Below are positions 1,637-51,698 of a stretch of 64,000 bases of DNA, piece after piece. The position numbers and the translations under genes were made by a program. The notes below the pieces were generated by a model that saw nothing but the letters and a program-made list of their open reading frames with translations, had not been told where the DNA came from and made no database searches. Positions within the stretch are counted from its first letter, which is position 1. Each line of letters opens with the position of its first letter. The stretch lies in assembly GCA_038087875.1 (NCBI GenBank), contig CM075991.1, positions 9,984,001 to 10,048,000 of the forward strand. The letters run 5' to 3'. This DNA is from Malacoraja senta (Eukaryota).

Positions 1637-2043
1637 CTTCTCCGTGGATTGTCACCTTGTCGTGGTGCTAGGAGCTTGTGTGGTCCTGACAACCTGAGAG
1701 CGATGCCCTCTGGAGCTATGCTCCTGGTAGGACCACCCAAGGTCGAGGGGGAGGTCCCTGACAAAGAGCAATCCAACCAAGACCTCAACGGTGGAACAGG
1801 CGGAGGACGATGGCTGACCTTAGTGGAGCGTCACAACGGCTGGGAAGGCGGATGAAGGCTGCAGCAGAAAAGGGTCTCCGGTCGTCTTGGACTCCATGCC
1901 ACTGGATCCTGACCCAGATCTGTCAAGGACCGTGTGGTGGCTGTCTGTGCACCAGTCTCCCCACGTTAAACAAAGTCACACACAGGCGTTCTCCACATAG
2001 AGAATGAGAGGACTGTCACACTCGTTTTGAGTGACTGCAGATG
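1637..2043 (+). mobile_element. Bipartite RTE-derived non-autonomous retroelement (copy 1), inserted into an old CR1 fragment
   Basis: Closely similar to 28549-28958 in reverse. Flanked by aatgtacagaa (1626-1636) and aatgtacaaaa (2044-2054). 5' end resembles RTE/Expander 5' UTRs (caccttgtcgtggt...gagctatgc...tgacaaagagc). Confidence 0.8.
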
Positions 2044-2289
2044 AATGTACAAAAATGTGAAATTGTTCATTTTGCCTGGTTAAATAAAAATTTAGCTTAT
2101 CATCTAACTGATGGGAGTCTACAGAGCTCTGACATATGGTGGGATTGATGCACAAAGTCTAACAAGTGCAATATTTGTTTATGGGTACAGAAAATTGAAC
2201 ACAAATATAGCAAGTTTCTCCTTCAGTTACAGTACATAGGGCATTGGTGAGAGCAATCTCAGGTACTGCCTCCTTATTTAACGACGTTA

Positions 2290-4702: not shown

Positions 4703-4787
4703 ACCTGATAAATAACTTTATCATTTGAGAGAAAAAGCCAGTTGCTGTCACTTTAACCAGTAAACTACCAGATAGTTTTTTAAACAA

Positions 4788-4980
4788 AGGTAGACAAAAG
4801 TGCTGGAGAAACTCAGCGGGTGCGGCAGCATCTATGGAGCGAAGGTAATAGGCAACGTTTCGGGCCAAAACCCTTCTTCGTTGCCTATTTCCTTCGCTCC
4901 ATAGATGCTGCTGCACCCGCTGAGTTTCTCCAGCACTTTTGTCTACCTTCGATTTTCCAGCATCTGCAGTTCCTTCTTAA
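4788..4980. mobile_element. Penelope pseudo-LTR (family B) inverted pair
   Basis: ggtagacaaaagtgctggagaaactcagcgggtgcggcagcatctatggagcgaagg followed directly by its reverse complement. Confidence 0.8.
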
Positions 4981-5329
4981 ACAGTTATTTAAACAAAATC
5001 CTTTTCACTAATGTCTTTCAGGGGAGGTTATTTCCCGTCCTTATCCGATCTGACCTTTCTGTGACTCCAGACCGTTGGGCCGAAGGGCCTGTTTCCACGC
5101 TGTATCACTCTGTGACACTATGACTCTATGAGATTCACCACCCTGACTACCAGTGATGAGGGGCTGTTTTGATTCCAACTGGGAAAGATCACTGGGTATG
5201 GAAATCAGTCGGGATTTTAAAGGTGGTTTTCCATTATGATGGCCAGTGCCATTTTTGGTCAATGCTGCGCAGTAAAAAACAACACACAGCAACACAAAAG
5301 GTTCGGGACAAGAACACCATGGTGTCGAC

Positions 5330-13024: not shown

Positions 13025-13350
13025 TGAGGGGTCAAACACTACCAGTGGGAAGCATGTTCTGCTGGTGGGAATCAAGGCAAGAGAAGTGGGAAACAGCATC
13101 AGGGGATGGGAAAACTGCCAGAGAGCAGAAACATTGCCAAGGCAATGAAAACGCTGCCATAGGAAGGAAAAAACTGGCAATGAGGAGGTAAAATCTGGCA
13201 GAGGAAGGAACATACTGACAGAGAGGAGGCAAACACTGCTAGAGAAAGGAAAACATTGGCAAAGGAAAGAAACACGATAGAAAGAGGAAAATATTGTCAG
13301 AGGGAATCGCTACAACATTGGAACGCATGCTACAGATGTCAGAGAGAAGG
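13025..13350. repeat. Degenerate ~20-bp tandem repeat (consensus about GGAAACACTGGCAGAGAGAA)
   Basis: Successive units such as gaaaactgccagagagcaga, taaaatctggcagaggaagg, caaacactgctagagaaagg, aaaacattggcaaaggaaag. Confidence 0.65.
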
Positions 13351-13352
13351 TA

Positions 13353-13528
13353 CACAAAAATGCTGGAGAAACTCAGTGGGTGCAGCAGCATCTATGGAGC
13401 GAAGGAAATAGGCAAAGTTTCGGGCCGGAACCCTTCTTCAGACCTTGACCTCACTATCTCCATCGCAGGTGATAGACTTCTGACCGACATCAACCATAAA
13501 CCCACTGACTCCCATGGCACTTCGGGCC
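13353..13528. mobile_element. Penelope insertion: inverted pseudo-LTR fused to an RT fragment (13444-13518 +)
   Basis: LDLTISIAGDRLLTDINHKPTDSHG matches the Penelope RT C-terminal FLD..T.vy.KPT motif. Direct repeat tcagagagaaggta at 13339-13352 and 13529-13542. Confidence 0.8.
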
Positions 13529-14640: not shown

Positions 14641-15994
14641 TCTATCTTCAAGTTAATTGGATTGTGTGTGACTGATAATGAGTTTCCACCATCTCCTGAT
14701 GCTGCTTAGATTGTACGATTTTTGCAATGATAAGGTTGGTGACTCCATCTTCACTAACCCCCCAATCAAATCCTTCTTCACAATAGACAATAGACAATAG
14801 ACAATAGGTGCAGGAGTAGGCCATTCGGCCCTTCGAGCCAGCACCGCCATTCAATGTGATAATGGCTGATCATCCCCAATCAGTACCCCGGTCCTGCCTT
14901 CTCCCCATATCCCCTGACTCCGCTATTTTTAAGAGCCCTATCTAGCTCTCTCTTGAAAGCATCCAGAGAACCTGCCTCCACCGCCCTCTGAGGCAGAGAA
15001 TTCCACAGACTCACCACTCTCGGTGAGAAAAAGTGTTTCTTCGACTCCGTTCACTTCACGCTGCATTTGGAAAGCAGCCAACAGACGGCCCTGGAAGCCA
15101 AGTCAATGGGTATTTTTAATTCGGAGTTTGACAGATTCTAGATTAGTACGGGTGTCAGTGGTTATGGGTCGAAGGCAGGAGAATGGGGTTGAGACAGAAA
15201 GATACGTAGGTAGACAAAAGCGCTGGAGAAACTCAGTGGGTGCAGCAGCATCTATGGAGCGAAGTAAATAAGCAACGTTTCGGGCCGAAACCCTTCTTCA
15301 GAAAGATAGATCAGCCATGATTGAACGTCGGAGTAGACGTGATGGGCCGAATGGCCTCATTCTGCTCCATAACCTATGAACATAATAAAGGATCACGCAC
15401 ACCCTTCTTCCCTCTCACATCAGCCAGAAGATGCAAAAACTTGAAAGCACGTGCCACCAGATTCAAGAGCAGCTTCTTCCCCGCTGTTATCAGGCTGCTG
15501 AATGAACTCTCAGCAGCTAAGTGTGTAGTCGAGGGTCTAACACTGCCAAAGAGAAAGAAAACACAGACAGAAAATGTCAAACAGTGGCAGGGAGTGGGGA
15601 ACACCAGCGGAGAGAGAGATAAGTACTCTCAGTGGAAAGGAAACAGTGGCAGTGTTTAGTTTAGTTTGGAGATACAGCGTGGAAATAGGCCCTTCGGCCC
15701 ACCAAGCCCGTGCTGACCTGCGGTCCTCATACACTAGGACTATCCTACACACACTAAGGACAATTTACCATCTGTACCGAAGCCAATTAACCTGCAGACC
15801 TGTATGTCTTTGGAGTGTGGGAGGAAACCGGAGCACCCGGAGAAAACCCACGTGGTGGCAGGGAGAACATACAAACTCCGTACAGACAGCACCCGAAGTC
15901 AGGATCGAACCCGGGTCTCTGGCGCTGCCCCACAGCGCTCCCCGGCGAAGACAGTGTCAGAAAGAGGGAAATAAACCTAAAGAAGGGGCAAGAG

Positions 15995-16420: not shown

Positions 16421-16969
16421 CAAACACGACTAGTGCAACAAATATCATCGTGCAGAAATAGCCAAACATTGTCAACCAAACCCAAGGCAGAATGTATTGG
16501 GAAGGAATGCGTTGACGAGCCCAGCAGTGAAGTGGTTAACAATGGTATTATGAATACATCTCTTGTTCTGCCTCTTCAGGGAAACCAATGCAGTTAGTTC
16601 CAAATATTGTGGACATCATAAAATCACCAGAAGCATCTGTCAGCACAGTGAGCTGCTATTTTCATTGTCCAATAGCAAATTTACACAGTGGAACACCTGG
16701 GCTGGATGGTTGTTTGACGAATTGTCGCGGGACAGTAGCCTGCATTTGTCTTCACTCCGGTTTCCTACCCTCCGTCTCAAACATGTGCTTTCACTTTTCT
16801 CCTCAGGCTCCAGGAAATAACAGGACAGTGAAGGCAGGAAAAAAACGATTTCTCTTCCAAAAGGTTGCCTCCTCCGAGGCCGATCCCAAAATAACGGCGA
16901 CGTGATGAGCCATTAATCATTCGGCGAGTTTACCAGCCCGAGCCACTAGGGTTTCATCCGTGCAGGGAT

Positions 16970-18762
16970 TGCCTGCCTGCCTGCCTGCAACCTGCCTGCC
17001 TGCCTGCCTGCTGCAACCTGCCTGCCTGCCTGCAACCTGCCTGCCTGCCTCCTGCAACCTGCCTGCCTGCCTCCTGCAACCTGCCTGCCTCCTGCCTCCT
17101 GCCTCCTGCAACCTGCCTCCTGCCTCCTGCAACCTGCCTGCCTGCCTCCTGCAACCTGCCTGCCTCCTGCAACCTGCCTGCCTCCTGCAACCTGCCTGCC
17201 TCCTGCAACCTGCCTGCCTCCTGCCTCCTGCCTCCTGCCTCCTGCAACCTGCCTGCCTCCTGCAACCTGCCTGCCTGCCTGCAACCTGCCTGCCTGCCTC
17301 CTGCAACCTGCCTGCCTCCTGCCTCCTGCCTCCTGCCTCCTGCAACCTGCCTGCCTGCCTCCTGCAACCTGCCTGCCTCCTGCAACCTGCCTGCCTGCCT
17401 CCTGCAACCTGCCTGCCTCCTGCCTCCTGCCTCCTGCCTCTGCCTCCTGCAACCTGCCTGCCTCCTGCAACCTGCCTGCCTCCTGCAACCTGCCTGCCTG
17501 CCTCCTGCAACCTGCCTGCCTCCTGCAACCTGCCTGCCTCCTGCCTCCTGCCTCCTGCAACCTGCCTGCCTCCTGCAACCTGCCTGCCTGCCTCCTGCAA
17601 CCTGCCTGCCTCCTGCAACCTGCCTGCCTCCTGCAACCTGCCTGCCTGCCTCCTGCAACCTGCCTGCCTCCCTGCCTCCCTGCCTGCCTGCCTCCTGCCT
17701 GCCTGCCTCCTGCAACCTGCCTGCCTCCTGCAACCTGCCTGCCTGCCTCCTGCAACCTGCCTGCCTCCTGCCTCCTGCCTCCTGCCTCCTGCAACCTGCC
17801 TGCCTCCTGCAACCTGCCTGCCTGCCTCCTGCAACCTGCCTGCCTCCTGCCTCCTGCCTCCTGCCTCCTGCCTCCTGCCTCCTGCAACCTGCCTGCCTCC
17901 TGCAACCTGCCTGCCTGCCTCCTGCAACCTGCCTGCCTCCTGCAACCTGCCTGCCTCCTGCAACCTACCTGCCTCCTGCAACCTGCCTGCCTCCTGCAAC
18001 CTACCTGCCTGCCTCCTGCAACCTGCCTGCCTCCTGCAACCTGCCTGCCTGCCTCCTGCAACCTGCCTGCCTCCTGCCTCCTGCCTGCCTGCCTCCTGCA
18101 ACCTGCCTGCCTCCTGCCTCCTACCTGCCTGCCTCCTGCAACCTGCCTGCCTCCTGCAACCTGCCTGCCTGCCTCCTGCAACCTGCCTCCTGCAACCTGC
18201 CTGCCTCCTGCAACCTGCCTGCCTCCTGCAACCTGCCTGCCTCCTGCAACCTGCCTGCCTGCCTCCTGCAACCTGCCTGCCTCCTGCCTCCTGCCTGCCT
18301 GCCTCCTGCAACCTGCCTGCCTCCTGCAACCTGCCTGCCTGCCTCCTGCAACCTGCCTGCCTCCTGCCTCCTGCCTCCTGCCTCCTGCAACCTGCCTGCC
18401 TCCTGCAACCTGCCTGCCTCCTGCAACCTGCCTGCCTGCCTCCTGCCTGCCTCCTGCAACCTGCCTGCCTCCTGCAACCTGCCTGCCTGCCTCCTGCAAC
18501 CTGCCTGCCTCCTGCCTCCTGCCTCCTGCCTCCTGCAACCTGCCTGCCTCCTGCAACCTGCCTGCCTCCCTGCAACCTGCCTGCCTGCCTCCTGCAACCT
18601 GCCTGCCTCCTGCCTCCTGCCTCCTGCCTCCTGCAACCTGCCTGCCTGCCTCCTGCAACCTGCCTGCCTCCTGCAACCTGCCTGCCTCCTGCAACCTGCC
18701 TGCCTCCTGCAACCTGCCTGCCTCCTGCAACCTACCTGCCTCCTGCAACCTGCCTGCCTCCG
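16970..18762. repeat. Compound minisatellite built from CCTG, CCTGCAA and CCTGCCT modules
   Basis: About 1.8 kb; base unit cctgcaa-cctg-cctgcct (18 bp) with 22-bp and other variants. Confidence 0.97.
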
Positions 18763-19079
18763 CCCGCAGCCGGAGGGAGAAACGGGCTCAGCTAAAGGCA
18801 GGCAGGGAGTCACGGCCACACACACAACTCGACGGCCGACGGTCGCTCTCAGGGTCGAGGTGGGACAAAGGCAATGCCGCAAGACGACGGCGTGTTTGAA
18901 TTCAGATGAATCCTGTGTGTGTGTTTATGTATGTGTGTATGTACCTCAGGCACCTAGACCTACGTTTTAACGCACACTGTTGAAAGCAGGTGTGTGAGCA
19001 TAGATTGGGTTGTGTGCGTTGCATGTGCGTGAAAGTGTATCATGCTTGCGTGTGTGGAGTGTGTCAGTATGCATATCTG

Positions 19080-20292
19080 TGTGTGTTTGTACGTTGTGTG
19101 TGTGTTTGTACATGTGTGTGTGGTTGTACATGCGTGTGTGTGGTTGTACATGCGTGTGTGTGGTTGTACATGCGTGTGTGTGGTTGTACATGTGTGTGTG
19201 TGGTTGTACATGCGTGTGTGTGGTTGTACATGCGTGTGTGTGGTTGTACATGCATGCGTGTGGTTGTACATGCGTGTGTGCGTTTGTACATGTGTGCGTG
19301 TTTGTACATGTGTGTTTGTACGTGTGTGTTTGTACATGTGTGTGTGTGTGTTTGTACATGTGTGTGTGTGTATGTGTGTGTTTGTTGTGGTTTTTGTACG
19401 TTTGTGTGTGTTTGTACATGTGCGTGTATATGTGTGTGTTTGTACATGTGTGTGTGTACATGTGTGTGTGTACATGTGTGTGTGTACATGTGTGTGTGTG
19501 TTTGTACATGTGTGTGTGTACATGTGTGTGTGTGTTTGTACATGTGTGTGTGTACATGTGTGTGTGTGTTTGTACATGTGTGTGTGTACATGTGTGTGTG
19601 TGTTTGTACATGTGTGTGTGTACATGTGTGTGTGTGTTTGTACATGTGTGTGTGTACATGTGTGTGTGTGTTTGTACATGTGTGTGTGTACATGTGTGTG
19701 TGTGTTTGTACATGTGTGTGTGTACATGTGTGTGTGTACATGTGTGTGTGTACATGTGTGTGTGTGTTTGTACATGTGTGTGTGTACATGTGTGTGTGTG
19801 TTTGTACATGTGTGTGTGTACATGTGTGTGTGTGTTTGTACATGTGTGTGTGTACATGTGTGTGTGTGTTTGTACATGTGTGTGTGTACATGTGTGTGTG
19901 TGTTTGTACATGTGTGTGTGTACATGTGTGTGTGTGTTTGTACATGTGTGTGTGTACATGTGTGTGTGTGTTTGTACATGTGTGTGTGTACATGTGTGTG
20001 TGTACATGTGTGTGTGTACATGTGTGTGTGTGTTTGTACATGTGTGTGTGTACATGTGTGTGTGTACATGTGTGTGTGTACATGTGTGTGTGTACATGTG
20101 TGTGTGTGTTTGTACATGTGTGTGTGTACATGTGTGTGTGTACATGTGTGTGTGTACATGTGTGTGTGTGTTTGTACATGTGTGTGTGTACATGTGTGTG
20201 TGTACATGTGTGTGTGTACATGTGTGTGTGTACATGTGTGTGTGTACATGTGTGTGTATATGTGTGTGTGTACATGTGTGCATGTGTATGCA
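19080..20292. repeat. Compound (TG)n-TACA satellite
   Basis: 14-bp (tgtacatgtgtgtg) and 18-bp (with ttt) units, often alternating as a 32-bp higher-order unit. Confidence 0.97.
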
Positions 20293-20685
20293 TGCTTTGG
20301 TCACAAGAATACCACAGACTAGTGAGACTTAAGCAAAGTACACACTGCCATGTCACGGCAGAAAATATTAGGACAGGTACATGGATAGGAAGGCTTTAGG
20401 ACTAATGTGGGTAAATGGGACAGAATGCCAACACGGTCGGCATGGATAAGGTTGGCCGAAGGCCTTGGTTTTGTACAGTATGGCTCTGTGCCTCTGCAGT
20501 GACAAGATGGTGTTCCACCACACATAGCCTCCTGTGGCCTCTAGTTCTTGATTCTGACCCTGGGAGAGTGACCATTGCATTCACCTTGTCTACTTCCCTC
20601 ATACACGTTTTATACACTTCTATAAGATCACCCCTCAGCCTCTTGGTGCTTGCGTCCTTGCAATATTTAATTTAGTTTCGTTTTA

Positions 20686-27062: not shown

Positions 27063-28548
27063 CTACGCCAACACAACAGTCCCTGTTCCCCAACCTTCGT
27101 GAATGCAACACCTGGGAAGTCTCTGGACTTGTCCCCCCAGAATCTCTGGGAAATTCCAGGGAGATGCTTGGGAATACAGCGGAAAATTCCCAGGTCACTG
27201 CAGGTGAAGAGGGTCAGTCATTCTCTGACTATCTCCAGGTCCCTGAAGGTGGACAGGGTCCGCAACCAAGAGTCCACGGCGCGCCGACAAGGTGGCCGAA
27301 AGATTAACTCATTCCAGTACAAGAGATCCTTAAGTTGTGGCTTGGAAATCTGCCCTTAATCAATGTGGTGTTTAGAGTTTAGAAAGACACGGCACGGAAA
27401 CAGGCCCTTTGGCCCATCGAATCCACGCCAGCCATTGACCACCCATTTACACCAGTTCTATGATATCCCACTTTTGCATCCATTCCTCACACAAGAGGCA
27501 ATTTACAAAGACCAATTAATAAAGTCACTAATGAAGTTACATTTAAGAAACCGTTTGGTATAATGGTGTATGGACATACTGATCAGTTCTGTATTCGTGC
27601 CTTCTATACTCTGTTGTGCTGATGCAAAGCAAGAATTTCATTGTCCTATCTGGGACATATGACAATAAACTCTCTTGACTTGACTTGGTATGTTTCTGAA
27701 GAGATGGCATTTACAGATATTTAGGCTTAGTTTAGTTCAGGGATACAGCGTGGAAACAGGCCCTTTTCGGCCCACGGAGTCCACACTAATCACCGATCAC
27801 CCGTACACAGGTTTTATTGGTTAACCCACTTTCGCTTCGCACTAGGGGACAATTTGCAGAAGCCAATTGACTTGCAAACCCGCACGTCTTTGGGAGGTGG
27901 GAGGAAACCGGAGCACCCAGAGGAAACCCACAAGGTCACATGGGGGACATGTAAACTCCACACAGACAGCAGCCCCGAGGTCAGGATCGAACCCGGGTCT
28001 CTGGAGCTGTAAGGCAGCGACTCCACCGCTGCGATTCACCAGATGCAGAGGCAAATGAACCGAAAATGGAACAATTAAACTCATACTTGCAGCAGCATAA
28101 CAGATATGTAAACATAGTACTCATACATAACACAATAAACAAAAGGCTTCATTAATTAAAAAAAATAATATGAGTGTAAACCAAAAGCCAGCAAGCCCGA
28201 GTGCAACCAAGACAGTTTGCAGTTTGTAGCTTGGTTAGTGTTTGTAGTGTTAGGGGCTTCATGGTTGTTTGGAAGAAGTTATTCCTGGACTTGGACGTCA
28301 CAGTTTTCAGATTCCTACACCTTCCTCCTGATAGCAGGAGTGAAATAAGAGCATGGCCAGGGTGGTGTGGGTCCCTGAGGATGCTGGCTGCCTTTTTTAA
28401 TGCTTTGCTTTCTATAGATCCCGTCGATGGTGGGAAGTACCCTGATGTACAAAAATAATCCATGATGGATTGGGCAGTATTCACCATTTATTGTCATCTC
28501 CTGGGCGTTTAAGTTGCCGAACCAGGCCGTGATGCAACTAGTCAATAT

Positions 28549-28958
28549 CATCATCATCATCATCGGTGGTCACTCGAAACGAGTATGACTGGCCTCTTTT
28601 GGGAGGACGCCTGTGCGTGACTTTGTTTAACGTGGGGAGACTGGTGCACAGACAGCCACCTCACGGTCCTTGACAGATCTGGGTCAGGATCCAGTGGCGT
28701 GGAGTCCAAGACGACCGGGGACCCTTTTCTGCTGCAGCCTTCATCCGCCTTCCCAGCCGTTGTGACGCTCCACTAAGGTCAGCCATCGTCCTCCGCCTGT
28801 TCCACCGTTGAGGTCTTGGTTGGATTGCTCTTTGTCAGAGACCTCCCCCTCGACCTTACCGCCATGGGTGGCCCTACCAGGAGCATAGCTCCAGACGGCA
28901 TCGCTCTCAGGACCAGACAAGCTTCTCCACCACGACAAGGTAACAATCCACTGAGAAG
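28549..28958 (-). mobile_element. Bipartite RTE-derived non-autonomous retroelement (copy 2)
   Basis: Perfect 12-bp TSD actagtcaatat (28537-28548 and 28959-28970); (GAT)n tail. Confidence 0.88.
28822..28958 (-). ncRNA. HDV-like ribozyme fold at the 5' end of the RTE-derived element (predicted)
   Basis: P1 CUUCUC(A)/(G)GAGAAG; P2 GGAUUG/CAAUCC; P3 ACC/GGU; L3 UUGUCGU; long P4 region; J4/2 CAAA with C at 28834. Second copy at 1637-1774. Confidence 0.55.
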
Positions 28959-29271
28959 ACTAGTCAATATGCTCTCTATCGTACAAATATAAAGGTTCAA
29001 GAGAGCAGTCATCAACATACCAAATCTCCTCAATCTTCTGAGGCAGTAGAGGTGCTGATGGACTTTCTTTATGATTGCATCAATGTGTTGGGTCCAGGAC
29101 AAATCTTCAGAGATATGCATACCCAGGAACTTGGTTGTTGACTTTCTCCACCACCAACCTGTCAATGGACACAGATTCGCGAATCCTTAACATGCCTCTT
29201 CCGAAGTCAACAGTCAGCTCCTTGGTCATACTGATGTTGAAAGGAAGAAGGGTCTCAACACGAAATGTCAC

Positions 29272-29792
29272 ATAGATACATAGAAAATAGGTGCAGGAGT
29301 AGGCCATTCGGCCCTTCGAGCCTGCACCGCCATTCAATGTGATCATGGCTGATCATCCAACTCAGTATCCCGTACCTGCCTTCTCTCCATACCCCCTGAT
29401 CCCCTTAGCCGCAAGGGCCACATTTAACTCCCTCTTAAATATAGCCAATGAACTGGCCTCAACTACCTTCTGTGGCAGAGAGTTCCAGAGATTCACCACT
29501 CTCTGTGTGAAAAGTTTTTCCTCATCTCGGTCTTAAAGGATTTCCCCCTTATCCTTAAGCTGTGACCCCTTGTCCTGGACTTCCCCAACATCGGGAACAA
29601 TCTTCCTGCATCTAGCCTGTCCAATCCATAAGAATTTTGTACGTTTCTATAAGATCCCCTCTCAATCTCCTAAATTCTAGCGAGTATAAGCCAAGACTAT
29701 CCAGTCTTTCTTCATATGAAAGTCCTGACATCCCAGGAATCAGTCTGGTGAACCTTCTCTGCACTCCCTCTATGGCTATAATGTCCTTCCTC
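29272..29792 (-). mobile_element. Young CR1 LINE 3' fragment nested in a Penelope pseudo-LTR
   Basis: Nearly identical to 30749-31280. The pseudo-LTR gaagggtctcaacacgaaatgtcac resumes as cgaaacgtcacctattcc at 29793. Confidence 0.88.
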
Positions 29793-30748: not shown

Positions 30749-31618
30749 CATAGATACATAGATACATAGAAAATAGGTGCAGGAGTAGGCCATTCGGCCC
30801 TTCAAGCCTGCACCGCCATTCAATATGATCATGGCTGATCATCCAACTCAGTATCCCGTACCTGCCTTCTCTCCATACCCCCTGATCCCTTTAGCCACAA
30901 GGGCCACATCTAACTCCCTCTTAAATATAGCCAATGAACTGGCCTCAACTACCCTCTGTGGCAGAGAGCTCCAGAGATTCACCACTCTCTGTGTGAAAAA
31001 GTTTTTCCTCATCTCGGTCTTAAAGGATTTCCCCCTTATCCTTAAGCTGTGACCCCTTGTCCTGGACTTCCCCAACATCGGGAACAATCTTCCTGCATCT
31101 AGCCTGTCCAACCCCATAAGAATTTGTACGTTTCTATAAGATCCCCTCTCAATCTCCTAAATTCTAGCGAGTATAAGCCAAGTCTATCCAGTCTTTCTTC
31201 ATATGAAAGTCCTGACATCCCAGGAATCAGTCTGGTGAACCTTCTCTGCACTCCCTCTATGGCTATAATGTCCTTCCTCAGATTTGGAGACCAAAACTGT
31301 ACGCAATACTCCAGGTGTGGTCTCACCAAGACCCTGTACAACTGCAGTAGAACCTCCCTGCTCCTATACTCAAATCCTCTTGCTATGAAGGCCAACATAC
31401 CATTCGCTTTCTTCACTGCCTGCTGCACCTGCATGCCTACTTTCAATGACCGGTGTACCATGACACCCAGGTCTCGCTGCTTCTCCCCATTTCCTAATCG
31501 GCCACCATTTAGATAATAGTCTGCCTTCCCGTTTTTGCCACCAAAGTGGATAACCTCACATTTATCCACATTATACTGCATCTGCCAAACATTTGCCCAC
31601 TCACCCAGCCTATCCAAG
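30749..31618 (-). mobile_element. Young CR1 LINE ORF2 C-terminal fragment (frameshifted), nested in another CR1 copy (30357-30748 plus 31619-31670)
   Basis: LDRLGEWANVWQMQYNVDKCEVIHFG...RDLGVMVHRSLK...LYRVLVRPHLEYCVQFWSP...RRLRGDLIETYK; (tctatgta)n tail. Confidence 0.92.
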
Positions 31619-34795: not shown

Positions 34796-34995
34796 NNNNN
34801 NNNNNNNNNNNNNNNNNNNNNNNNNNNNNNNNNNNNNNNNNNNNNNNNNNNNNNNNNNNNNNNNNNNNNNNNNNNNNNNNNNNNNNNNNNNNNNNNNNNN
34901 NNNNNNNNNNNNNNNNNNNNNNNNNNNNNNNNNNNNNNNNNNNNNNNNNNNNNNNNNNNNNNNNNNNNNNNNNNNNNNNNNNNNNNNNNNNNNNN
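34796..34995. other. Assembly gap (200 N)
   Basis: Run of N. Confidence 1.
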
Positions 34996-35277
34996 AAACT
35001 GAATCCAAATTTTCTGACTTGGAGGTAAATTATGTTACTGTGTGAGACATTGGTGTGAAGCCCCAATAATAGACCTCTCTAATCTAAGTTTTTATAGAGA
35101 TACAGCATGGAAACAGGCCCTTCGGCCCACTGGGCCCATGCCAACCATTGATCACCCATTCACATTAGTTCTAGCTTATCCCACTTTACACATCCTATAC
35201 ATTAGAGGCAACTTACAGTGGACAATTAAATGCCTTTGCAACGATATACATTAGCATGTAGCTGCATAATTAGCATC

Positions 35278-43335: not shown

Positions 43336-43476
43336 CTTCTTCTTGCGTATGGCGTGCACAGCCTGAAGCTGTAGATCAAGTGGCATGAAAAACTACATCT
43401 ATTTGTTTGTGCAAGTCGGGTTGATTACATTAATCGAAACAGGGTGGACCACGTGAAGGTTGCAATGTCCCACCCA
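43336..43476 (-). mobile_element. Short ribozyme-headed SINE-like element (copy B; ribozyme region 43423-43476)
   Basis: gggtgggacattgcaaccttcacgtggtccaccctgtttcgattaatgtaatc...gccatacgcaagaagaag; imperfect TSD ggcactgtg / ggcactatg. Confidence 0.8.
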
Positions 43477-43883
43477 GGCACTATGCTTAAACTCCTCTGA
43501 AACCCAGCACAACTCTGTTGCCACTACTGTGCAGGATACTTCTCCATGCCTTCCCATGTTTCCACTTGCATGCACTACTGAGATGAATGTGCAATGTAAG
43601 GTGCCACAATGGTGCGGCCTCACGGCTCAGAGATCCGGGATCAACACCGAACTAGTTTAGTTTAGTTTAGAGATACAGCGCAGAAACAGACCCTTCAGCC
43701 CTCCGAGTCCGTGCCGACCAGCGATCCCCGTACACCAAAACTCTCCTACATGCAAGGGATAATTTACAAAAGCCAAATTAACCTACAAACCTGTACGTCT
43801 TTGGAGTGTGGGAGGAAACTGGAGCACCCAGGGAAAACATACGCGGGTCTACAGGTGCTGTCTGTACCTTCGAGAGGGGAGGG

Positions 43884-44535
<652 letters not shown>

Positions 44536-47500
44536 AATTTTCATGTTCTACCTCTGATAGTGTGGGTTTCCTGCAGATGCTCTGGTTTCCTCCCACAATG
44601 CCAACAATATGCAGCTGGGTAGGTGTATTTGCCACTGTAACCTGCCCCTGGTGTAGGCGAATAGTAGAATCTGGCGGAAGTTGACGGGAATGTGGAATGT
44701 GGGGAGAATAAAATGGGTTAGGTGTGAGAAGAGTGTAAAAATGTTTGCTGGCTTGTTGGTGTTTGGAGTCAGTGGGTCTGTTTTTGCACTTTAGTTTAGT
44801 TTAGAGATACAGCGTGGAAACAGGCCCACCGAGTCCACACTGACCAGCGATCCCCACACATTAACACTATCCTACACACACGAGGGACAATTTACACTTT
44901 TAAAAAGCCAATTAACCAACAAACCTGTACGCCTTTGGAGTGTGGGAGGAAACCGGATATCTCAGAGAAAACCCACGCAGGTCACGGGAGAACGTACAAA
45001 CTCCGTACAGACAGCACCCGTAGTCGGGATCTAACCCGGGACTCTGGTGCCAGAAGCATTGTAAGGCAGCAACTCCACTGCTGTGACAACGTGCCGCCTT
45101 TTTAACATTTTATTACGCCACTGTGTCCTTTCTCTCTATGAATTTCATGTTGCTCAGTTAAAGACACAAACTGATTATTTACAGAATGGTTAACAAACTG
45201 CTCAAGGTGCTGATTCCAGTGACTGGCATATGTCCCAATTCCTCTGGCTGCTTATTCCCAGAATGTTGGTGTCCCTCCTGCCCAGAAACTTTCAAAGGCA
45301 ACTGTGCACTTCTGCCATCAACAGTTTACATGGGAGGGAAGCATGGACAAAATGTCAAACAGCAGTCAGCATTGTGTTAAAGAAGGAACTGCAGATGCTG
45401 GAAAAATCGAAGGTACTCAAAAATGCTGGAGAAACCCAGCGGGTGCAGCAGCATCTATGGAGCGAAGGAAATAGGCAACGTTTCGGGACGAAACCCTTCT
45501 TCAGACATTAGCATTGGCTGGCAACGAATGGGAAGCAATTTTCTTTTGTAGTTTAGAGATACAGCGTGGAAACAGGCCCTTCGGCCCACCGAGTCCATGC
45601 CAACCAGCGAGCCCAGCACATTAACGCTATCTACACACACTAGGGACAATTTCCAATTATACCAAGCCAATTAACCTACAAGCCCACAAGTCTTTGGAGT
45701 GTTGGAGGAAACCGGAGCACCCAGAGAAAACCCATGCGGGTCATGGGGAGAACATACAAACTGCGTACAGACAAGCAGCACCCATAGTCAGGATCAAACC
45801 CGGGTCTCTGGCACTGTAAGGCAGCAACTCTACCGCTGCACCACCGTGACGCTTTTTTTTTTAAAGAGGCAAGCCAAATACTCCAATTTATGATCTTTGC
45901 TCTCCCTTAGCCTACCAGTCATCTTGTTAAGAGCAATGCTTTGCGACCAATAACACCTAGTTAAAGAAGTTGAAGAAGGGTCACGACCCGAAACGTCACG
46001 CATTCCTTCTCTCCAGAGATGCTGCCTGAGTTACTCCAGCATTGAGTTGGGTGGGACAAGTGTTTCAAATGAGTTTGCTGCTTTTAAACATAATAATGAC
46101 TTGTATTAATGATGTTGGCTTTTGCACTGATGTTGTTTACTGCAGTCTCATCTCAATGGCATCCATCCATGTGCAATAGAAATTAAGTCTAACTAAACCC
46201 ACACCTATCCACATGGACACGGACCTCCAGCAGAGGTTTACTGCAGCAATCAAGTCCATGAAACATTGCTATTTTTTCGCCCTCCCTGGCCATGCAGAGG
46301 GAAAATTAATTGTAATGGCCCTGGTGAAGTGCCAGCTGAGAGAATCTAATTCAGTACACACTGAAATCAAACTGGCAACATTCCTGGTCTATGTAAGCCC
46401 AATTCCATTGCAGCCAATACATTTACCATGCAGTTATGTAGCTTTAGAAGGATTTTAAATGTTTACTCTGATTCACAACGTATGGCTGCTTTCAACACTG
46501 TGTTAAATATTTCTTAGTAAAGTTCAGAGATACAGCATGGAAACAGGCCCTTCGGCCCACTGAGTCCGTGGCGACCAGCAATCCCCGCACACTAACACCA
46601 TCCCACACACGCTATGGACAATTTACAATTTTACCAAGCCAATTAGCTTACAAACCTGTATGTCTTTGGAGTGTGGGAGGAAACCGGAGCACCCGGAGAA
46701 AACCCACGAGGACACGGGGGGAACGTACAACCTCCGTACAGACAGCAACCATAGTCAGGATTGAACCCAGGTCTTTGTAAGGCAGCAACTCTACTGCTGT
46801 GCCACCATGACGCCCACGTTATATATATTTAAATATGTTTAAAAGGTGTTTGGATACGTAGTTGAATAGGAAAGAGATAAAGAGTGATAGGCCTAAATCA
46901 GGCAATTGGGATAAGTGTACACACATTACCACTTTCACCAGCAAAGATTTAGCCCCCTTTAAAAATGCTCCTCTCTTTGACCATAGGTTTGCCCTAGCAC
47001 CTTCTTATATGGTGCAGTTTCATATGTGTATATGGCAATGCTTTTTCTGAAGTGGCCTGCGATGTTTTGCAATGTTTGTTCCATTGGAGGTTTAATATAG
47101 CCACTGCCTTTTATTTTATTACACGTGGCTATTATAGGAAAAACGGCAATAATCCACGATCTACTCTTTCATAAATCTCAATGGTTCGGCACTTGTCTCA
47201 ACGGGTAATGTTTGCCGTGCTGTTTTCCAGCTGGCCTGCACCTCAGTTCCTGCGCTCCCATCCGACTCACCAGAGCTTCAACAAACCAAGGCCATGTTTC
47301 CCACTCTTCCTTTAAACTTAGTTCACAGACAAATTTATTATCATAAAGTGCCACAGGTGTTAAAAAAAGGTGAATGAATTTCCTTGATCATCATCTGCTT
47401 TGATCTGTTCTTTTCACATCTTACATGTTCTTTGTACCTTTCCATATATAGTTTTCTTCTCCCCGACTCTCAGTCCGAAGAAGGGTCTCGACCCGAAACA

Positions 47501-48440: not shown

Positions 48441-48574
48441 CGTCTGTCTGAAGAAGGGTTTCGGCCTGAAACGTTGCCTATTTCCTTCGCTCCATAGATG
48501 CTGCTGCACCCGCTGAGTTTCTCCAGCATTTTTGTGTACCTTCGATATTCCAGCATCTGCAGTTCCTTCTTTAA
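48441..48574 (+). mobile_element. Solo Penelope pseudo-LTR (family B) with 12-bp TSD
   Basis: gtctgaagaagggtttcggcctgaaacgttgcc; caaattaataat at 48429-48440 and 48575-48586. Confidence 0.85.
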
Positions 48575-51303
48575 CAAATTAATAATTGAATGTGCAATAG
48601 AAGCAATAAGGAATAGCACACAAACAAAGACTGAGAAGTAATTGGCTTCAAATTGGTAGCAAGAATAGAAATCTCAGTGATGCCTGCATTGCAATGTATG
48701 CATTTAAAACGCTCAAGACTTTTTCCCTATGCCAACCAAGCGTTTAGCTTTTAGTTTTTGTTTTGTTGCACTTATTCTATCTCCATTGCTGTGAGCAGTG
48801 GAAGGAACTTATTTCCAGTCATTTGTGAGTCTCATTTGGAAATTGCCAGCCAGTTTTTCACTGTAGATTCGTATACGTTAAAATCACAATGCTGCTCATT
48901 GAAGCAACAATCAGAGTTGCTCCAAACTCGAATTGTTCAGTTTTGTACTGCAACATGTCCCTTGAGTGCCGAATAGCCATGGGTCAGATTCTGTTTGTGG
49001 CATGAAGTGAGATCACTGAATCCTTGCCAAGTTTAAACACCAATGTTTAAAAATGGCACTGCAGACAAAATCTGTATTGTCTACGATTTCAGGAAAAATC
49101 AACTTTAGGAGTTGGAAGAGAATGGAAATGACACCTAAACTGGGGAATTTCAAAATAAAATGTACTGATCAAAAATGGAAAGGATATACAGTGAAATTGC
49201 AAATGTATAATCCATTACTTAAGATGTCCAAATGAGAAACAAGTTTCAAGTGGTTAAAAAATAAATAGAAACAAAAATATTTTACTTGATTTCAACACGA
49301 GGGAAAGAATGTAAACAATTAAAGAAACCCTGGGATGAAATGAGAATGTTGAAAAAAGTAAATGTCAAATGAGATTGAGGGGAACAAGTATAGTAAATCC
49401 CCAGATATAGGTTTGAAACAGGAAAAGTATTAAATATCAATAGGGCCCCTTAAGAAGGAGCGAGACGAGATGGAGGAGATGCTAGCAGAATAGAGGAACT
49501 TTCAAAATGATTTCAGAATAATTTCATGCTTGAAAACATTGGTGGCATTCCCAGAGCACTAGCTAAAGCGTGGGGGATGGACATGCATCCATGGAGAATA
49601 CACAGGCCAGCAATTGAGGCGTTGTTAAGAAATTAGAGTATTTCAGATTCTTTCAGCATGTATCCAGATGAACTGCATGCCAAGAAAGGAGGCTCTGGAT
49701 TCAAGTGCAGAACTGCTGAGTTAGCCATCCCGGAAACGCCAGGTTTCTACACTCATTGAGAGAAATTCATACAACTTGCATCAAAATGACACTACACAGA
49801 AATCCCACTCCGCTCTGCTTTTGTCGTCGATGATGATGAGCAAACACAGGCCTGCATGAGAGAAGACTGTTCATTGAATCGTTCCAAGTGCATGTTATAT
49901 AACCCATCATGGTTGGGTGAATAACTCAGAATGTTGGTAGATTCACTCGGTACACATAGGCAGTTGGGATTGCAGTGGCATGGGACTTCACCAGGTTTAC
50001 AGTCATTTTGAATGGGGGGGGTGGCTGACACTCATCAGTGTGAAGAAGGGTCCCGACCCAAAATGTTACCCATCCTTTTTCTCCAGGGATGCCGCCTGCT
50101 GAGCTTCTCCAGCACTGTGTGTCTATCTTCGGTATATGCCAGCATCAGCAGTTCCTTTCTACACACCCATCAGCTCAGCCTGCAGCTGATGATAACACTA
50201 ATACTTGTGCAAGCTTGTCCTTCATATAGCATTAAATATGTTCAAAGATATCCCTTCCAACTCAAGATAACGCTGATATTTTCTCGTGCTAGCCAGGGCA
50301 TTTTGCAGGAGATATCGGTACATTTCCATCATTGCCTGTTAAGTGGGAGTACTATCAATAGACCCAGCACACCTTAGAAACAAACCTGTGGTGACTGACA
50401 CTGCCCTGTGCCTCTCAAAGGAGAGCTGAGCGCCGAATCTGATCACAACTGCTAGCTGTTGTGGAGCTCACTGCACAGATGAGGAAGCCTTGGTGGATCA
50501 AGCATGGGTGGAAGAGTTAGGGAGATAAATTATCACTTGGTCTCCGCATGCGACGACCTACCACGTGTGGTCAATATCGGCAGAAATAGCAAATACCATC
50601 AAATAGCCACCTACACAATATACCACAAGAGTGAGTGTGAGCCCGATTGTGTGTGTGTGTGCACATACATGGCCATGAGCTGAGCTTACAGCAATGGTCA
50701 GAAGACCATAGCCAACATCAATCCTCTCCTCCTCCACCATCTACAATGAATCCCTCCTGATTAAATATTACTGATTGTATACCTCGTTGTCACCTTCCCC
50801 TCAGCTAACAATGTACCGTTCTCCATTTTCCTTGATCATCGTTCCCTTTGATCGGTGTTTTCGCACCTTGCCCTTCCATATCGCTCTCTCCCTCTCCCCT
50901 GACTCTCAGACTGAAGAAGGGTCTCGACCTGAAACGTCACCCATTCCTTCTCTCCAGAGATGCTGCCTGAGTTGCTCCAGCATTTTGTATCCATCTTCGG
51001 TGTAAACCAGCATCTGCAGTTCCTTCCCACACAAGCCCCACTACAGTGCTCCAGTGGGGTGAGAGAATACATTTTTATGTACTAGTCTGAAATGGAATAC
51101 AAATCTACATAATAAAACAGAAGCAGGTGGAGATGATTTTGTCCGGTTATGTATGTTCTGCCACAGTCAATACGAACATGCCTGACCTTTTTTTCTGAAT
51201 GCTATTTCCTAATCTCTCCCTAACCCCTCGATGCCATGCCATGTCTCCAGAACTTGGAACTATATTTCTCCTCACTCTTCATGCGGAGAACTCCAAGAGT
51301 TTA

Positions 51304-51698
51304 AGAAGGAACTGCAGATGCTGGAAAATCGAAGGTAGACAAAAGTGCTGGAGAAACTCAACGGGTGCAGCAGCGTCTATGGAGCGAAGGAAATAGGCAA
51401 CGTTTAGGGCCGAAACCCTTCTTCAGACTGATGTTGGGTGGGCGGGGCGGGGAGAAGAAAGGAAAAAGGAAGAGGAGGAGCCCGAGGGCTGAGGGAGAGC
51501 TGAGAAGGGGAGGAGACAGCAAGGGTCAACGGAAATTGGAGAATTCAATGTTTATGCCGCTAGGGTGCAGACTGCCCAAGCGGAATAGGAGGTGCTGCTC
51601 CTCCAATTTCCGGTGGTGCTCACTCTGGTCATGGAAGAGGCCCAGGACAGAGAGGTCGGATTCGGAATGGGAGGGGGAGTTGTGGAGTTGTAACTCTT
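51304..51698 (-). mobile_element. Penelope element 3' end: GIY-YIG endonuclease C-terminus (51526-51681) plus pseudo-LTR
   Basis: NSPSHSESDLSVLGLFHDQSEHHRKLEEQHLLFRLGSLHPSGINIEFSNFR* matches the R...E...I..L.t..p.GlN end of Penelope endonucleases; 19-bp direct repeat ggagaactccaagagttta. Confidence 0.9.

What the first reader, a model, noticed from the sequence alone, without database searches (positions are those of the whole stretch)
28549..28958. Bipartite RTE-derived element beginning with a second, different HDV-like fold
Seen: the perfect 12-bp TSD places the 5' end at the first base of a putative P1 (CUUCUCM/GGAGAAG). It is followed by P2 GGAUUG, P3 ACC/GGU, L3 UUGUCGU, a P4 region of about 85 nt, J4/2 CAAA and the P2 partner GAGCAAUCC. 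L3 position 3 is G and the base after P1 is C, so the P1.1 pair is swapped (G-C) relative to the C-G in the micro-SINE. There is no tRNA head and the tail is (GAT)n. Established: RTE-clade LINEs give rise to bipartite 5'+3' non-autonomous derivatives, and some RTE 5' UTRs carry HDV-like ribozymes. Inference: an independent ribozyme-processed SINE family.
Basis: partly seen in the sequence, partly recalled or inferred. Interest (0 to 1): 0.7.

Follow-up and report, generated by a model that had tools for sequence, protein, structure and literature searches.

The report
Ribozyme-headed mini RTE retrotransposon
This is one slightly worn copy of a short, protein-free jumping element cut down from an RTE retrotransposon, and it starts exactly where a hepatitis-delta-type self-cutting RNA fold would cut itself free; the fold is inherited from a wide group of RTE elements rather than invented here, and cutting has not been shown.

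Summary
The 410-bp insert (28549-28958, minus strand) has a perfect 12-bp target duplication, a (GAT)n tail and no tRNA head. A second copy (1637-2044) starts at the same base, and sequencing runs hold thousands of matching contigs whose depth falls about 14- to 25-fold at that base. The first 138 nt fit an HDV-like nested double pseudoknot. In 68 homologous 5' ends from metagenome contigs, P1, P2, P1.1 (G-C or A-U) and four P4 helices covary, the catalytic C is kept in 57 of 60, and conservation begins at the predicted cut site. Those homologs head RTE-type APE+RT elements and their internally deleted derivatives. So this is a bipartite non-autonomous RTE, a known kind (Kojima 2018), with an inherited HDV-like 5' fold, also known in principle. 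It is not a SINE in the strict sense, and the swapped P1.1 is ordinary variation. Unusual: C at +1 paired with G, and a conserved ~95-nt branched P4 shared with BovB/AviRTE/elephant RTE1; no Rfam model matches. This copy lacks 8 nt of P4 and may be dead. Cleavage is untested; the autonomous partner was not found.

The parts
28549..28958 (-). Whole element, copy A (410 bp), non-coding bipartite RTE derivative
   Evidence: TSD; second copy 89% identical over 416 columns; depth edges
28959..28970 (.). Target site duplication, 5' side of the element
   Evidence: 12 of 12
28537..28548 (.). Target site duplication, 3' side; its first two bases continue the (GAT)n tail
   Evidence: empty-site contigs
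28821..28958 (-). HDV-like nested double pseudoknot; predicted cut 5' of C28958
28952..28958 (-). P1 5' strand; +1 is C
   Evidence: P1 covariation 11.85 vs 10.25 of 14, 0 of 20000 permutations
28942..28949 (-). P2 5' strand
28929..28941 (-). P3 (3 bp) and L3 UUGUCGU; G28936 is the P1.1 partner
28922..28928 (-). P1 3' strand
28921..28921 (-). C after P1, single P1.1 pair with G28936
   Evidence: G-C 47, A-U 17, G-U 2, unpaired 4 of 70
28835..28920 (-). Branched P4 domain (86 nt here, 94-98 in most relatives): helices 28914-10/28843-39 (4 of 5), 28898-94/28863-59, 28892-88/28884-80, 28874-72/28868-66; lacks 8 nt near 28905-28912
28830..28834 (-). J4/2 CAAAG; C28834 is the predicted catalytic cytosine
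   Evidence: C in 57 of 60 aligned homologs
28822..28829 (-). P2 3' strand
28602..28820 (-). Rest of the 5' part (inferred RTE 5' UTR region); other copies continue beyond 28602 with different sequence
   Evidence: loose ends before 28602 in 122, 95 and 10 contigs
28549..28597 (-). 3' part: short hairpin and (GAT)n tail; joined to other upstream sequence in other copies
   Evidence: loose end behind 28597 in 2 X11 contigs; folds
1637..2044 (+). Copy B: same first base, 11-bp TSD with 1 mismatch, broken P1 3' strand, different 8-nt deletion and different internal junction
28959..29186 (-). Host: older LINE-like coding fragment that the element interrupts
   Evidence: PF09004 hit E 6.9e-7; frame goes on beyond the insert

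Best explanation
The element is an internally deleted, non-autonomous derivative of an RTE-clade LINE: about 357 nt of the parent's 5' end joined to about 49 nt of its 3' end. Shown: insertion with a TSD, high copy number, a fixed 5' start, a conserved HDV-like fold. Inferred mechanism: a copy is read through by host RNA polymerase II; the 5' 138 nt fold into the double pseudoknot and C28834 catalyses a cut just before C+1, freeing a unit-length RNA whose folded 5' end also shields it; the partner RTE's APE/RT protein binds the 3' hairpin, nicks DNA, primes on the (GAT)n tail and copies the RNA, giving 11-12-bp TSDs and copies that all start at +1. The ribozyme was inherited from the RTE parent. 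Odds: bipartite RTE derivative about 0.9; fold real and selected across the RTE group about 0.95; family consensus self-cleaves at +1 about 0.7; this copy still cleaves about 0.4.
For: Same first base in both window copies; depth falls 127,307 to 5,053 (X1), 51,283 to 3,693 (X5), 7,500 to 299 (X11) across the 5' edge, and 71 X5 contigs go loose exactly behind 28958. 68 of 113 metagenome motif hits are homologous at E<1e-4, none of 112 viral and prokaryotic hits. In the largest cluster C is at +1 in 31 of 33, against 10/9/8/6 one base upstream. RNAalifold finds P2, P3 and four P4 helices unaided, 23 of 31 pairs with changes on both sides; 29 named pairs are 93.6% paired, 0 of 500 shuffles, slid registers at most 49.2%. 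10 of 27 homolog loci with 700 nt downstream (L034 itself included) lead into an ORF like that of L034, which has Exo_endo_phos and RVT_1. L083 is 302 nt of L034's 5' end plus 115 nt of its 3' end with a 13-bp TSD. RTE-3_Crp matches 66 of 69 columns in P4 by eye. L1TcRz cleaves at a C+1 with a one-pair P1.1 and works in the non-autonomous NARTc (PMC3185411).
Against: No cleavage data. A review calls the G.U at the cut site essential and G1 invariant for HDV-like ribozymes (PMC8495972); here it is C-G in 55 of 70. Copy A lacks 8 nt of P4 and, folded alone without pseudoknots, gives P3 probability 0.00; the core-constrained fold is -41.3 against -48.6 kcal/mol before P1 (-7.2 as a duplex) is added. 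Copy B has a broken P1. The search motif fixed L3 and two P3 pairs, so their invariance is no evidence. The P1.1 flip needs 3 changes on the tree but well-supported branches force only 1. The partner LINE was not found (no tblastn hit in the window), and the 3' junction rests on 2 contigs. The one RNA run laid gave only 7 contigs.
Confidence: 0.72

Rival explanations
1. The fold is real but cuts little or not at all. An internal Pol II promoter starts transcription at +1, and the structure serves as an end cap, protein-binding site or translation aid.
For: C-G instead of G.U at +1; strong primary-sequence conservation inside P4 beyond pairing needs; L1Tc's first 77 nt are both promoter and ribozyme; Kojima notes that LINE 5' ends drive transcription.
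Against: The catalytic C (57 of 60) and the C-N-A-A of J4/2 are kept although the search did not ask for them, and the element boundary sits exactly at the base of P1. A promoter and a ribozyme do not exclude each other.
Confidence: 0.18
2. The element is a chimera, not a clean internal deletion: its 5' part and its 49-nt tail come from different RTE families (tail exchange), and the 410-bp form is a minor variant of a longer family.
For: Depth over the tail (35,000-66,000 in X1 and X5) is several times lower than over the body (up to 410,000), many contigs leave at 28602, and copies A and B differ at the junction. Tail exchange is described.
Against: Short terminal pieces are laid less well; both window copies share the same tail; an exact internal-deletion pair exists in a related family (L083/L034).
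Confidence: 0.09
3. The HDV-like parse is a chance pattern in a GC-rich 5' end.
For: No Rfam hit; folding z-score 0.10.
Against: 0 of 5000 shuffles hit at the 5' end; compensatory changes in 23 of 29 pairs; P1 and P2 permutation tests 0 of 20000 each.
Confidence: 0.01

Closest known systems
Bipartite non-autonomous RTE elements (Bov-A, RTE1-N1_LA, RTE-N2_Lch, RTESINE1/2, WALLSI3; Kojima 2018, PMC5786205)
   Same: RTE 5' end plus short 3' end, microsatellite tail, no ORF, no small-RNA head, 10-12-bp TSD typical of RTE. RTE1-N1_LA shows the same fold by eye, with P3 swapped to AGU/ACU.
   Different: Other host and sequence family; (GAT)n tail; partner not identified; the paper does not fold these 5' ends.
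Repbase RTE-3_Crp and RTE-7_PM (as printed in the supplement of PMC5786205)
   Same: Nearest named 5' ends seen: 66 of 69 columns with RTE-3_Crp across P4, L3 at position 24 (by eye).
   Different: Their first 23 nt and their 3' ends were not visible to me, so partner status is untested.
HDV-like ribozymes of RTE, R2, R4, Baggins (Ruminski 2011, seen only through citing papers)
   Same: Nested double pseudoknot at the element's 5' end, cut at the junction.
   Different: Here +1 is C paired with G, J1/2 is very short and the large insert is in P4; Agam-2-1 has its large domain in J1/2. I could not see which RTE families that paper lists.
L1TcRz in L1Tc and NARTc (PMC3185411, PMC4035085)
   Same: Cut at a C+1, one-pair P1.1, carried by an internally deleted non-autonomous element.
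   Different: Ingi-clade, trypanosomes, 77 nt with a small P4, and activity shown; sequence homology not tested.

Membership tests
Bipartite non-autonomous RTE | 5' part homologous to the extreme 5' end of RTE LINEs | tested here: met
Bipartite non-autonomous RTE | 3' part is the 3' end of the same LINE | tested here: inconclusive
   hairpin plus microsatellite tail; other upstream sequence in 2 contigs; partner not found
Bipartite non-autonomous RTE | No coding capacity, internal part missing | tested here: met
   three-frame translation and no tblastn hit with the L034 ORF; contigs leave at 28602
Bipartite non-autonomous RTE | Retroposed many times, with TSDs | tested here: met
SINE (strict, small-RNA head, Pol III) | tRNA/5S/7SL-derived head with A and B boxes | tested here: not met
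   ARAGORN 0 genes; no B box in either copy, one loose A-box match in copy A only; no Rfam hit
HDV-like ribozyme | P1 of 6-7 bp, P2, P3 of 3 bp, P4 in nested double-pseudoknot order | tested here: met
HDV-like ribozyme | P1.1 of one or two pairs | tested here: met
   G-C 14, A-U 6, gap 1 of 21; next position U.U in 67 of 70, as in a solved HDV-type ribozyme
HDV-like ribozyme | Catalytic C followed by N-A in J4/2 | tested here: met
   57 of 60
HDV-like ribozyme | U...G reverse wobble and C-G in L3 | tested here: inconclusive
   present in both copies, but imposed on the homologs by the search motif
HDV-like ribozyme (canonical form) | G at +1 in a G.U wobble | tested here: not met
   C-G in 55 of 70; L1TcRz is an active exception with C+1
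HDV-like ribozyme | Mg2+- and C-dependent self-cleavage at +1 | not testable with these tools
   needs an assay

The most novel reading that the evidence does not exclude
The 5' end of a large part of the RTE clade (the group holding Expander-like, BovB, AviRTE, elephant RTE1 and their bipartite derivatives) is one uncatalogued, active HDV-like ribozyme subtype with C at +1, a flip-tolerant one-pair P1.1 and a conserved ~95-nt four-helix P4 domain. It would be missed by G+1 descriptors and by Rfam, would be present at very high copy number in vertebrates including mammals, and would explain why RTE so often spawns bipartite derivatives that keep their exact 5' end while tRNA-headed SINEs lose or break it.
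Probability: 0.3. Interest if true: 0.68.

Novelty: new member of a known kind. Interest (0 to 1): 0.4.

Why it matters
The element itself is an ordinary example of a known design. Its value is as a pointer: the covariation gathered here turns a by-eye fold into a well-supported structure shared by many RTE families, and gives direct tests of an open question raised by Kojima 2018 (whether ribozymes explain which LINE clades make bipartite derivatives). If the C+1, large-P4 form cleaves, it widens the sequence rules for HDV-like ribozymes, adds a high-copy vertebrate class, and may bear on RTE-1_MD-based gene-writing templates, which carry RTE UTRs (whether RTE-1_MD has this fold was not tested).

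Tried and rejected
Rfam, gathering and E-value modes: nothing relevant. No whole genome is held, so no genome-wide copy set or partner search. The motif scan of viral contigs (3 hits) and prokaryote genomes (109 hits) gave no homolog; these serve as a negative control. My first P2 test used a loose pattern for J4/2 that mis-anchored several rows (0.59 vs 0.49, 52 of 20000); it was redone with an alignment column. Helix indices for two P4 stems were off by one and corrected. P1 could not be counted on the MAFFT alignment because J1/2 length varies, so it was tested by an anchored permutation. The middle P4 pairing is unresolved: my guess and RNAalifold differ. Pseudoknot-free folding recovers few of the helices in most single sequences, so it neither supports nor refutes. 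The ~133-bp repeat family was checked as the 'micro-SINE' and is not it. The sigma-70 scan is irrelevant to a vertebrate element. Ruminski 2011 could not be read. Earlier-findings look-ups by sequence, place and first word set were empty.

Full report
Observation. The insert spans 28549-28958 and reads on the minus strand. A 12-bp direct repeat flanks it with no mismatch. It interrupts an older LINE-like coding fragment (PF09004, E 6.9e-7; the frame continues on the other side), and contigs of that host repeat without the insert run on behind 28548 in all three larger runs laid (203, 187 and 10 contigs). A second copy lies at 1637-2044 (+), 89% identical, starting at the same base, with an 11-bp duplication that has one mismatch. 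A generic HDV descriptor, written after I had seen the element, hits the window once, at 28958; 30 shuffled windows gave 3 hits in all, and 0 of 5000 shuffles of the 5' end gave a hit at the start. Rfam has no match and plain folding is no better than shuffles (z 0.10).

Family. 20 of 23 listed runs hold the stretch or part of it, 15 with half or more of its words, from 12 studies; six coded organisms hold 0.69-0.75 of the words. Four runs were laid: 10,125, 8,278, 1,071 and 7 contigs. Depth drops about 14- to 25-fold between the bins 28936-54 and 28955-73 in X1, X5 and X11, and 71 X5 contigs go loose behind 28958 with no common sequence (agreement 0.37), so many copies share this 5' end. Loose ends at 28905 and 28912 show that other copies carry 8 more nt in the base of P4, as copy B does; copy A has lost them. 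Many contigs leave the element at 28602 with a shared other continuation (122, 95, 10), and 2 X11 contigs join the last 49 nt to another upstream sequence. That is what a 5'+3' junction predicts, but the 3' side is thin, the tables were cut, and the tail is covered several times less deeply than the body, which I cannot fully explain. The host is a vertebrate, probably a cartilaginous fish; that rests on recalled resemblance of its repeats and was not tested.

Homologs. Of these 225, 68 match the element at E<1e-4, all from metagenomes and only over its first ~180 nt; 4 weaker hits were dropped. They are inferred to be animal DNA in the assemblies. 10 of the 27 with at least 700 nt downstream (L034 included) lead into an ORF related to that of L034, a ~3.3-kb element with one 1026-aa frame holding Exo_endo_phos and RVT_1. 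L083 is 302 nt of the L034 5' end (91%) plus 115 nt of its 3' end (90%) inside a 13-bp duplication: the same bipartite design in a related family. The supplement of Kojima 2018 names the group: RTE-3_Crp agrees with copy A in 66 of 69 columns across P4, RTE-7_PM, AviRTE and BovB share the same blocks, RTE1-N1_LA shows the whole core with P3 swapped, and BovB_Plat has the A-U form of P1.1 (all by eye).

Structure. In 70 rows (68 loci and 2 window copies) L3 position 3 and the base after P1 are G-C 47, A-U 17, G-U 2, unpaired 4; the search fixed only the purine side. At the level of 21 clusters, 17 give a 12/0/0/5 table (p 1.6e-4) and 4 are unpaired. On a tree without those columns the flip needs 3 changes (bootstrap 3-4), though well-supported branches force only 1. 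P1 scores 11.85 of 14 against 10.25 +/- 0.28 when strands are dealt out between 20 clusters (0 of 20000; copy B left out). In the 60 rows long enough, the column of C28834 holds C in 57; P2 positions 2-8 pair at 0.864 against 0.628 +/- 0.030 (0 of 20000), while its top pair is mostly open. RNAalifold on 21 representatives finds P2, P3 and four P4 helices unaided; 29 named pairs are 93.6% paired, 23 with changes on both sides, 0 of 500 shuffles, slid registers at most 49.2% (these shuffles ignore kinship). In the largest cluster conservation starts at the first base of P1: C in 31 of 33, against a near-even mix one base upstream. L3 and two P3 pairs were imposed by the search and count for nothing. 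The +1 pair is C-G in 55 of 70 (P1 5' strand picked by best pairing).

Mechanism. Shown: retroposition with TSDs, a fixed start at the base of P1, a selected HDV-like fold. From established knowledge: HDV-like ribozymes cut at the first nucleotide of P1 and free LINE RNAs from co-transcripts; RTE TSDs are mostly 10-12 bp and start with A in animals, as here. Inferred: read-through transcription, self-cleavage before C28958, recognition of the 3' hairpin by a partner RTE protein, priming on the (GAT)n tail. The main doubt is the C at +1: one review calls the G.U there essential, but L1TcRz cleaves at C1 with a one-pair P1.1 and is active in non-autonomous NARTc, and earlier screening rules were judged too strict. 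Copy A itself is doubtful: 8 nt lost, a U.U in the basal P4 helix, and a competing fold about as stable as the ribozyme form. Copy B has a broken P1.

Comparison. It works like NARTc or an R2 internal-deletion element, and it is a member of the bipartite non-autonomous RTE kind on three of four features, the fourth inconclusive. It fails the strict SINE test. It meets the structural tests for an HDV-like ribozyme but not the canonical G+1. The swapped P1.1 is real relative to the micro-SINE but not distinctive: solved HDV-type ribozymes have U:A plus U:U or C:U there.

Novelty. The element is a new member of a known kind. Nine literature searches showed no paper, in their listings or in the passages read, that describes this C+1, large-P4 fold for BovB, Expander, AviRTE or RTE1; the library lacks most subscription papers, and Ruminski 2011 with its supplement, the most likely place, was not held. 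Hence 0.3 for the bolder reading.

Papers seen. PMC5786205: main text parts 1-4 of 5, supplement passages and part 6 of 15. PMC3185411: passages and first part of the Discussion. PMC4035085: passages and section 5. PMC6765202, PMC8495972, PMC4908430, PMC3774820, PMC6007223, PMC13708176, PMC13635239: passages. Ruminski 2011: nothing, known through citations only. Other papers: search listings. The label 'Expander-like' for L046 is recalled.

Noticed in passing
My strict descriptor missed both worn copies.
   Followed up: partly
window 28821-28950 against 43420-43470: The P2 strands of the micro-SINE and of this element look alike (ATTG...ACC and GCAATC); the match is weak (15 of 19, E 0.28), so chance or shared constraint.
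   Followed up: partly
window 28549-28612: Tail depth is several times lower than body depth in three runs, and most leaving contigs share one other continuation at 28602; a longer sister form or the autonomous partner probably exists.
   Followed up: partly
L006, L013, L057, L060, L063: A related non-coding family sits behind (TG)n repeats at what looks like one kind of site; L013 is a much shorter internal deletion.
   Followed up: no
L052 and L085: These lack the P4d hairpin cleanly while keeping the core, so that helix is modular.
   Followed up: no
L043, L059, L093: Further short ribozyme-headed elements of about 290-550 nt inside 9-11-bp duplications.
   Followed up: no
window 29270-29792 and 30756-31279: A 525-bp direct repeat at 97.7% close to the element; recent duplication or assembly artefact.
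   Followed up: no
window 45375-45507, 48445-48576, 51299-51431, 4787-4983, 13346-13443, 15205-15306: A young ~133-bp repeat family, with two opposite copies abutting at 4787-4983.
   Followed up: no
window ~16900-20400, ~43760-44560 and ~34800-35000: Long simple tandem arrays that give spurious long ORFs, and a 200-N gap.
   Followed up: no
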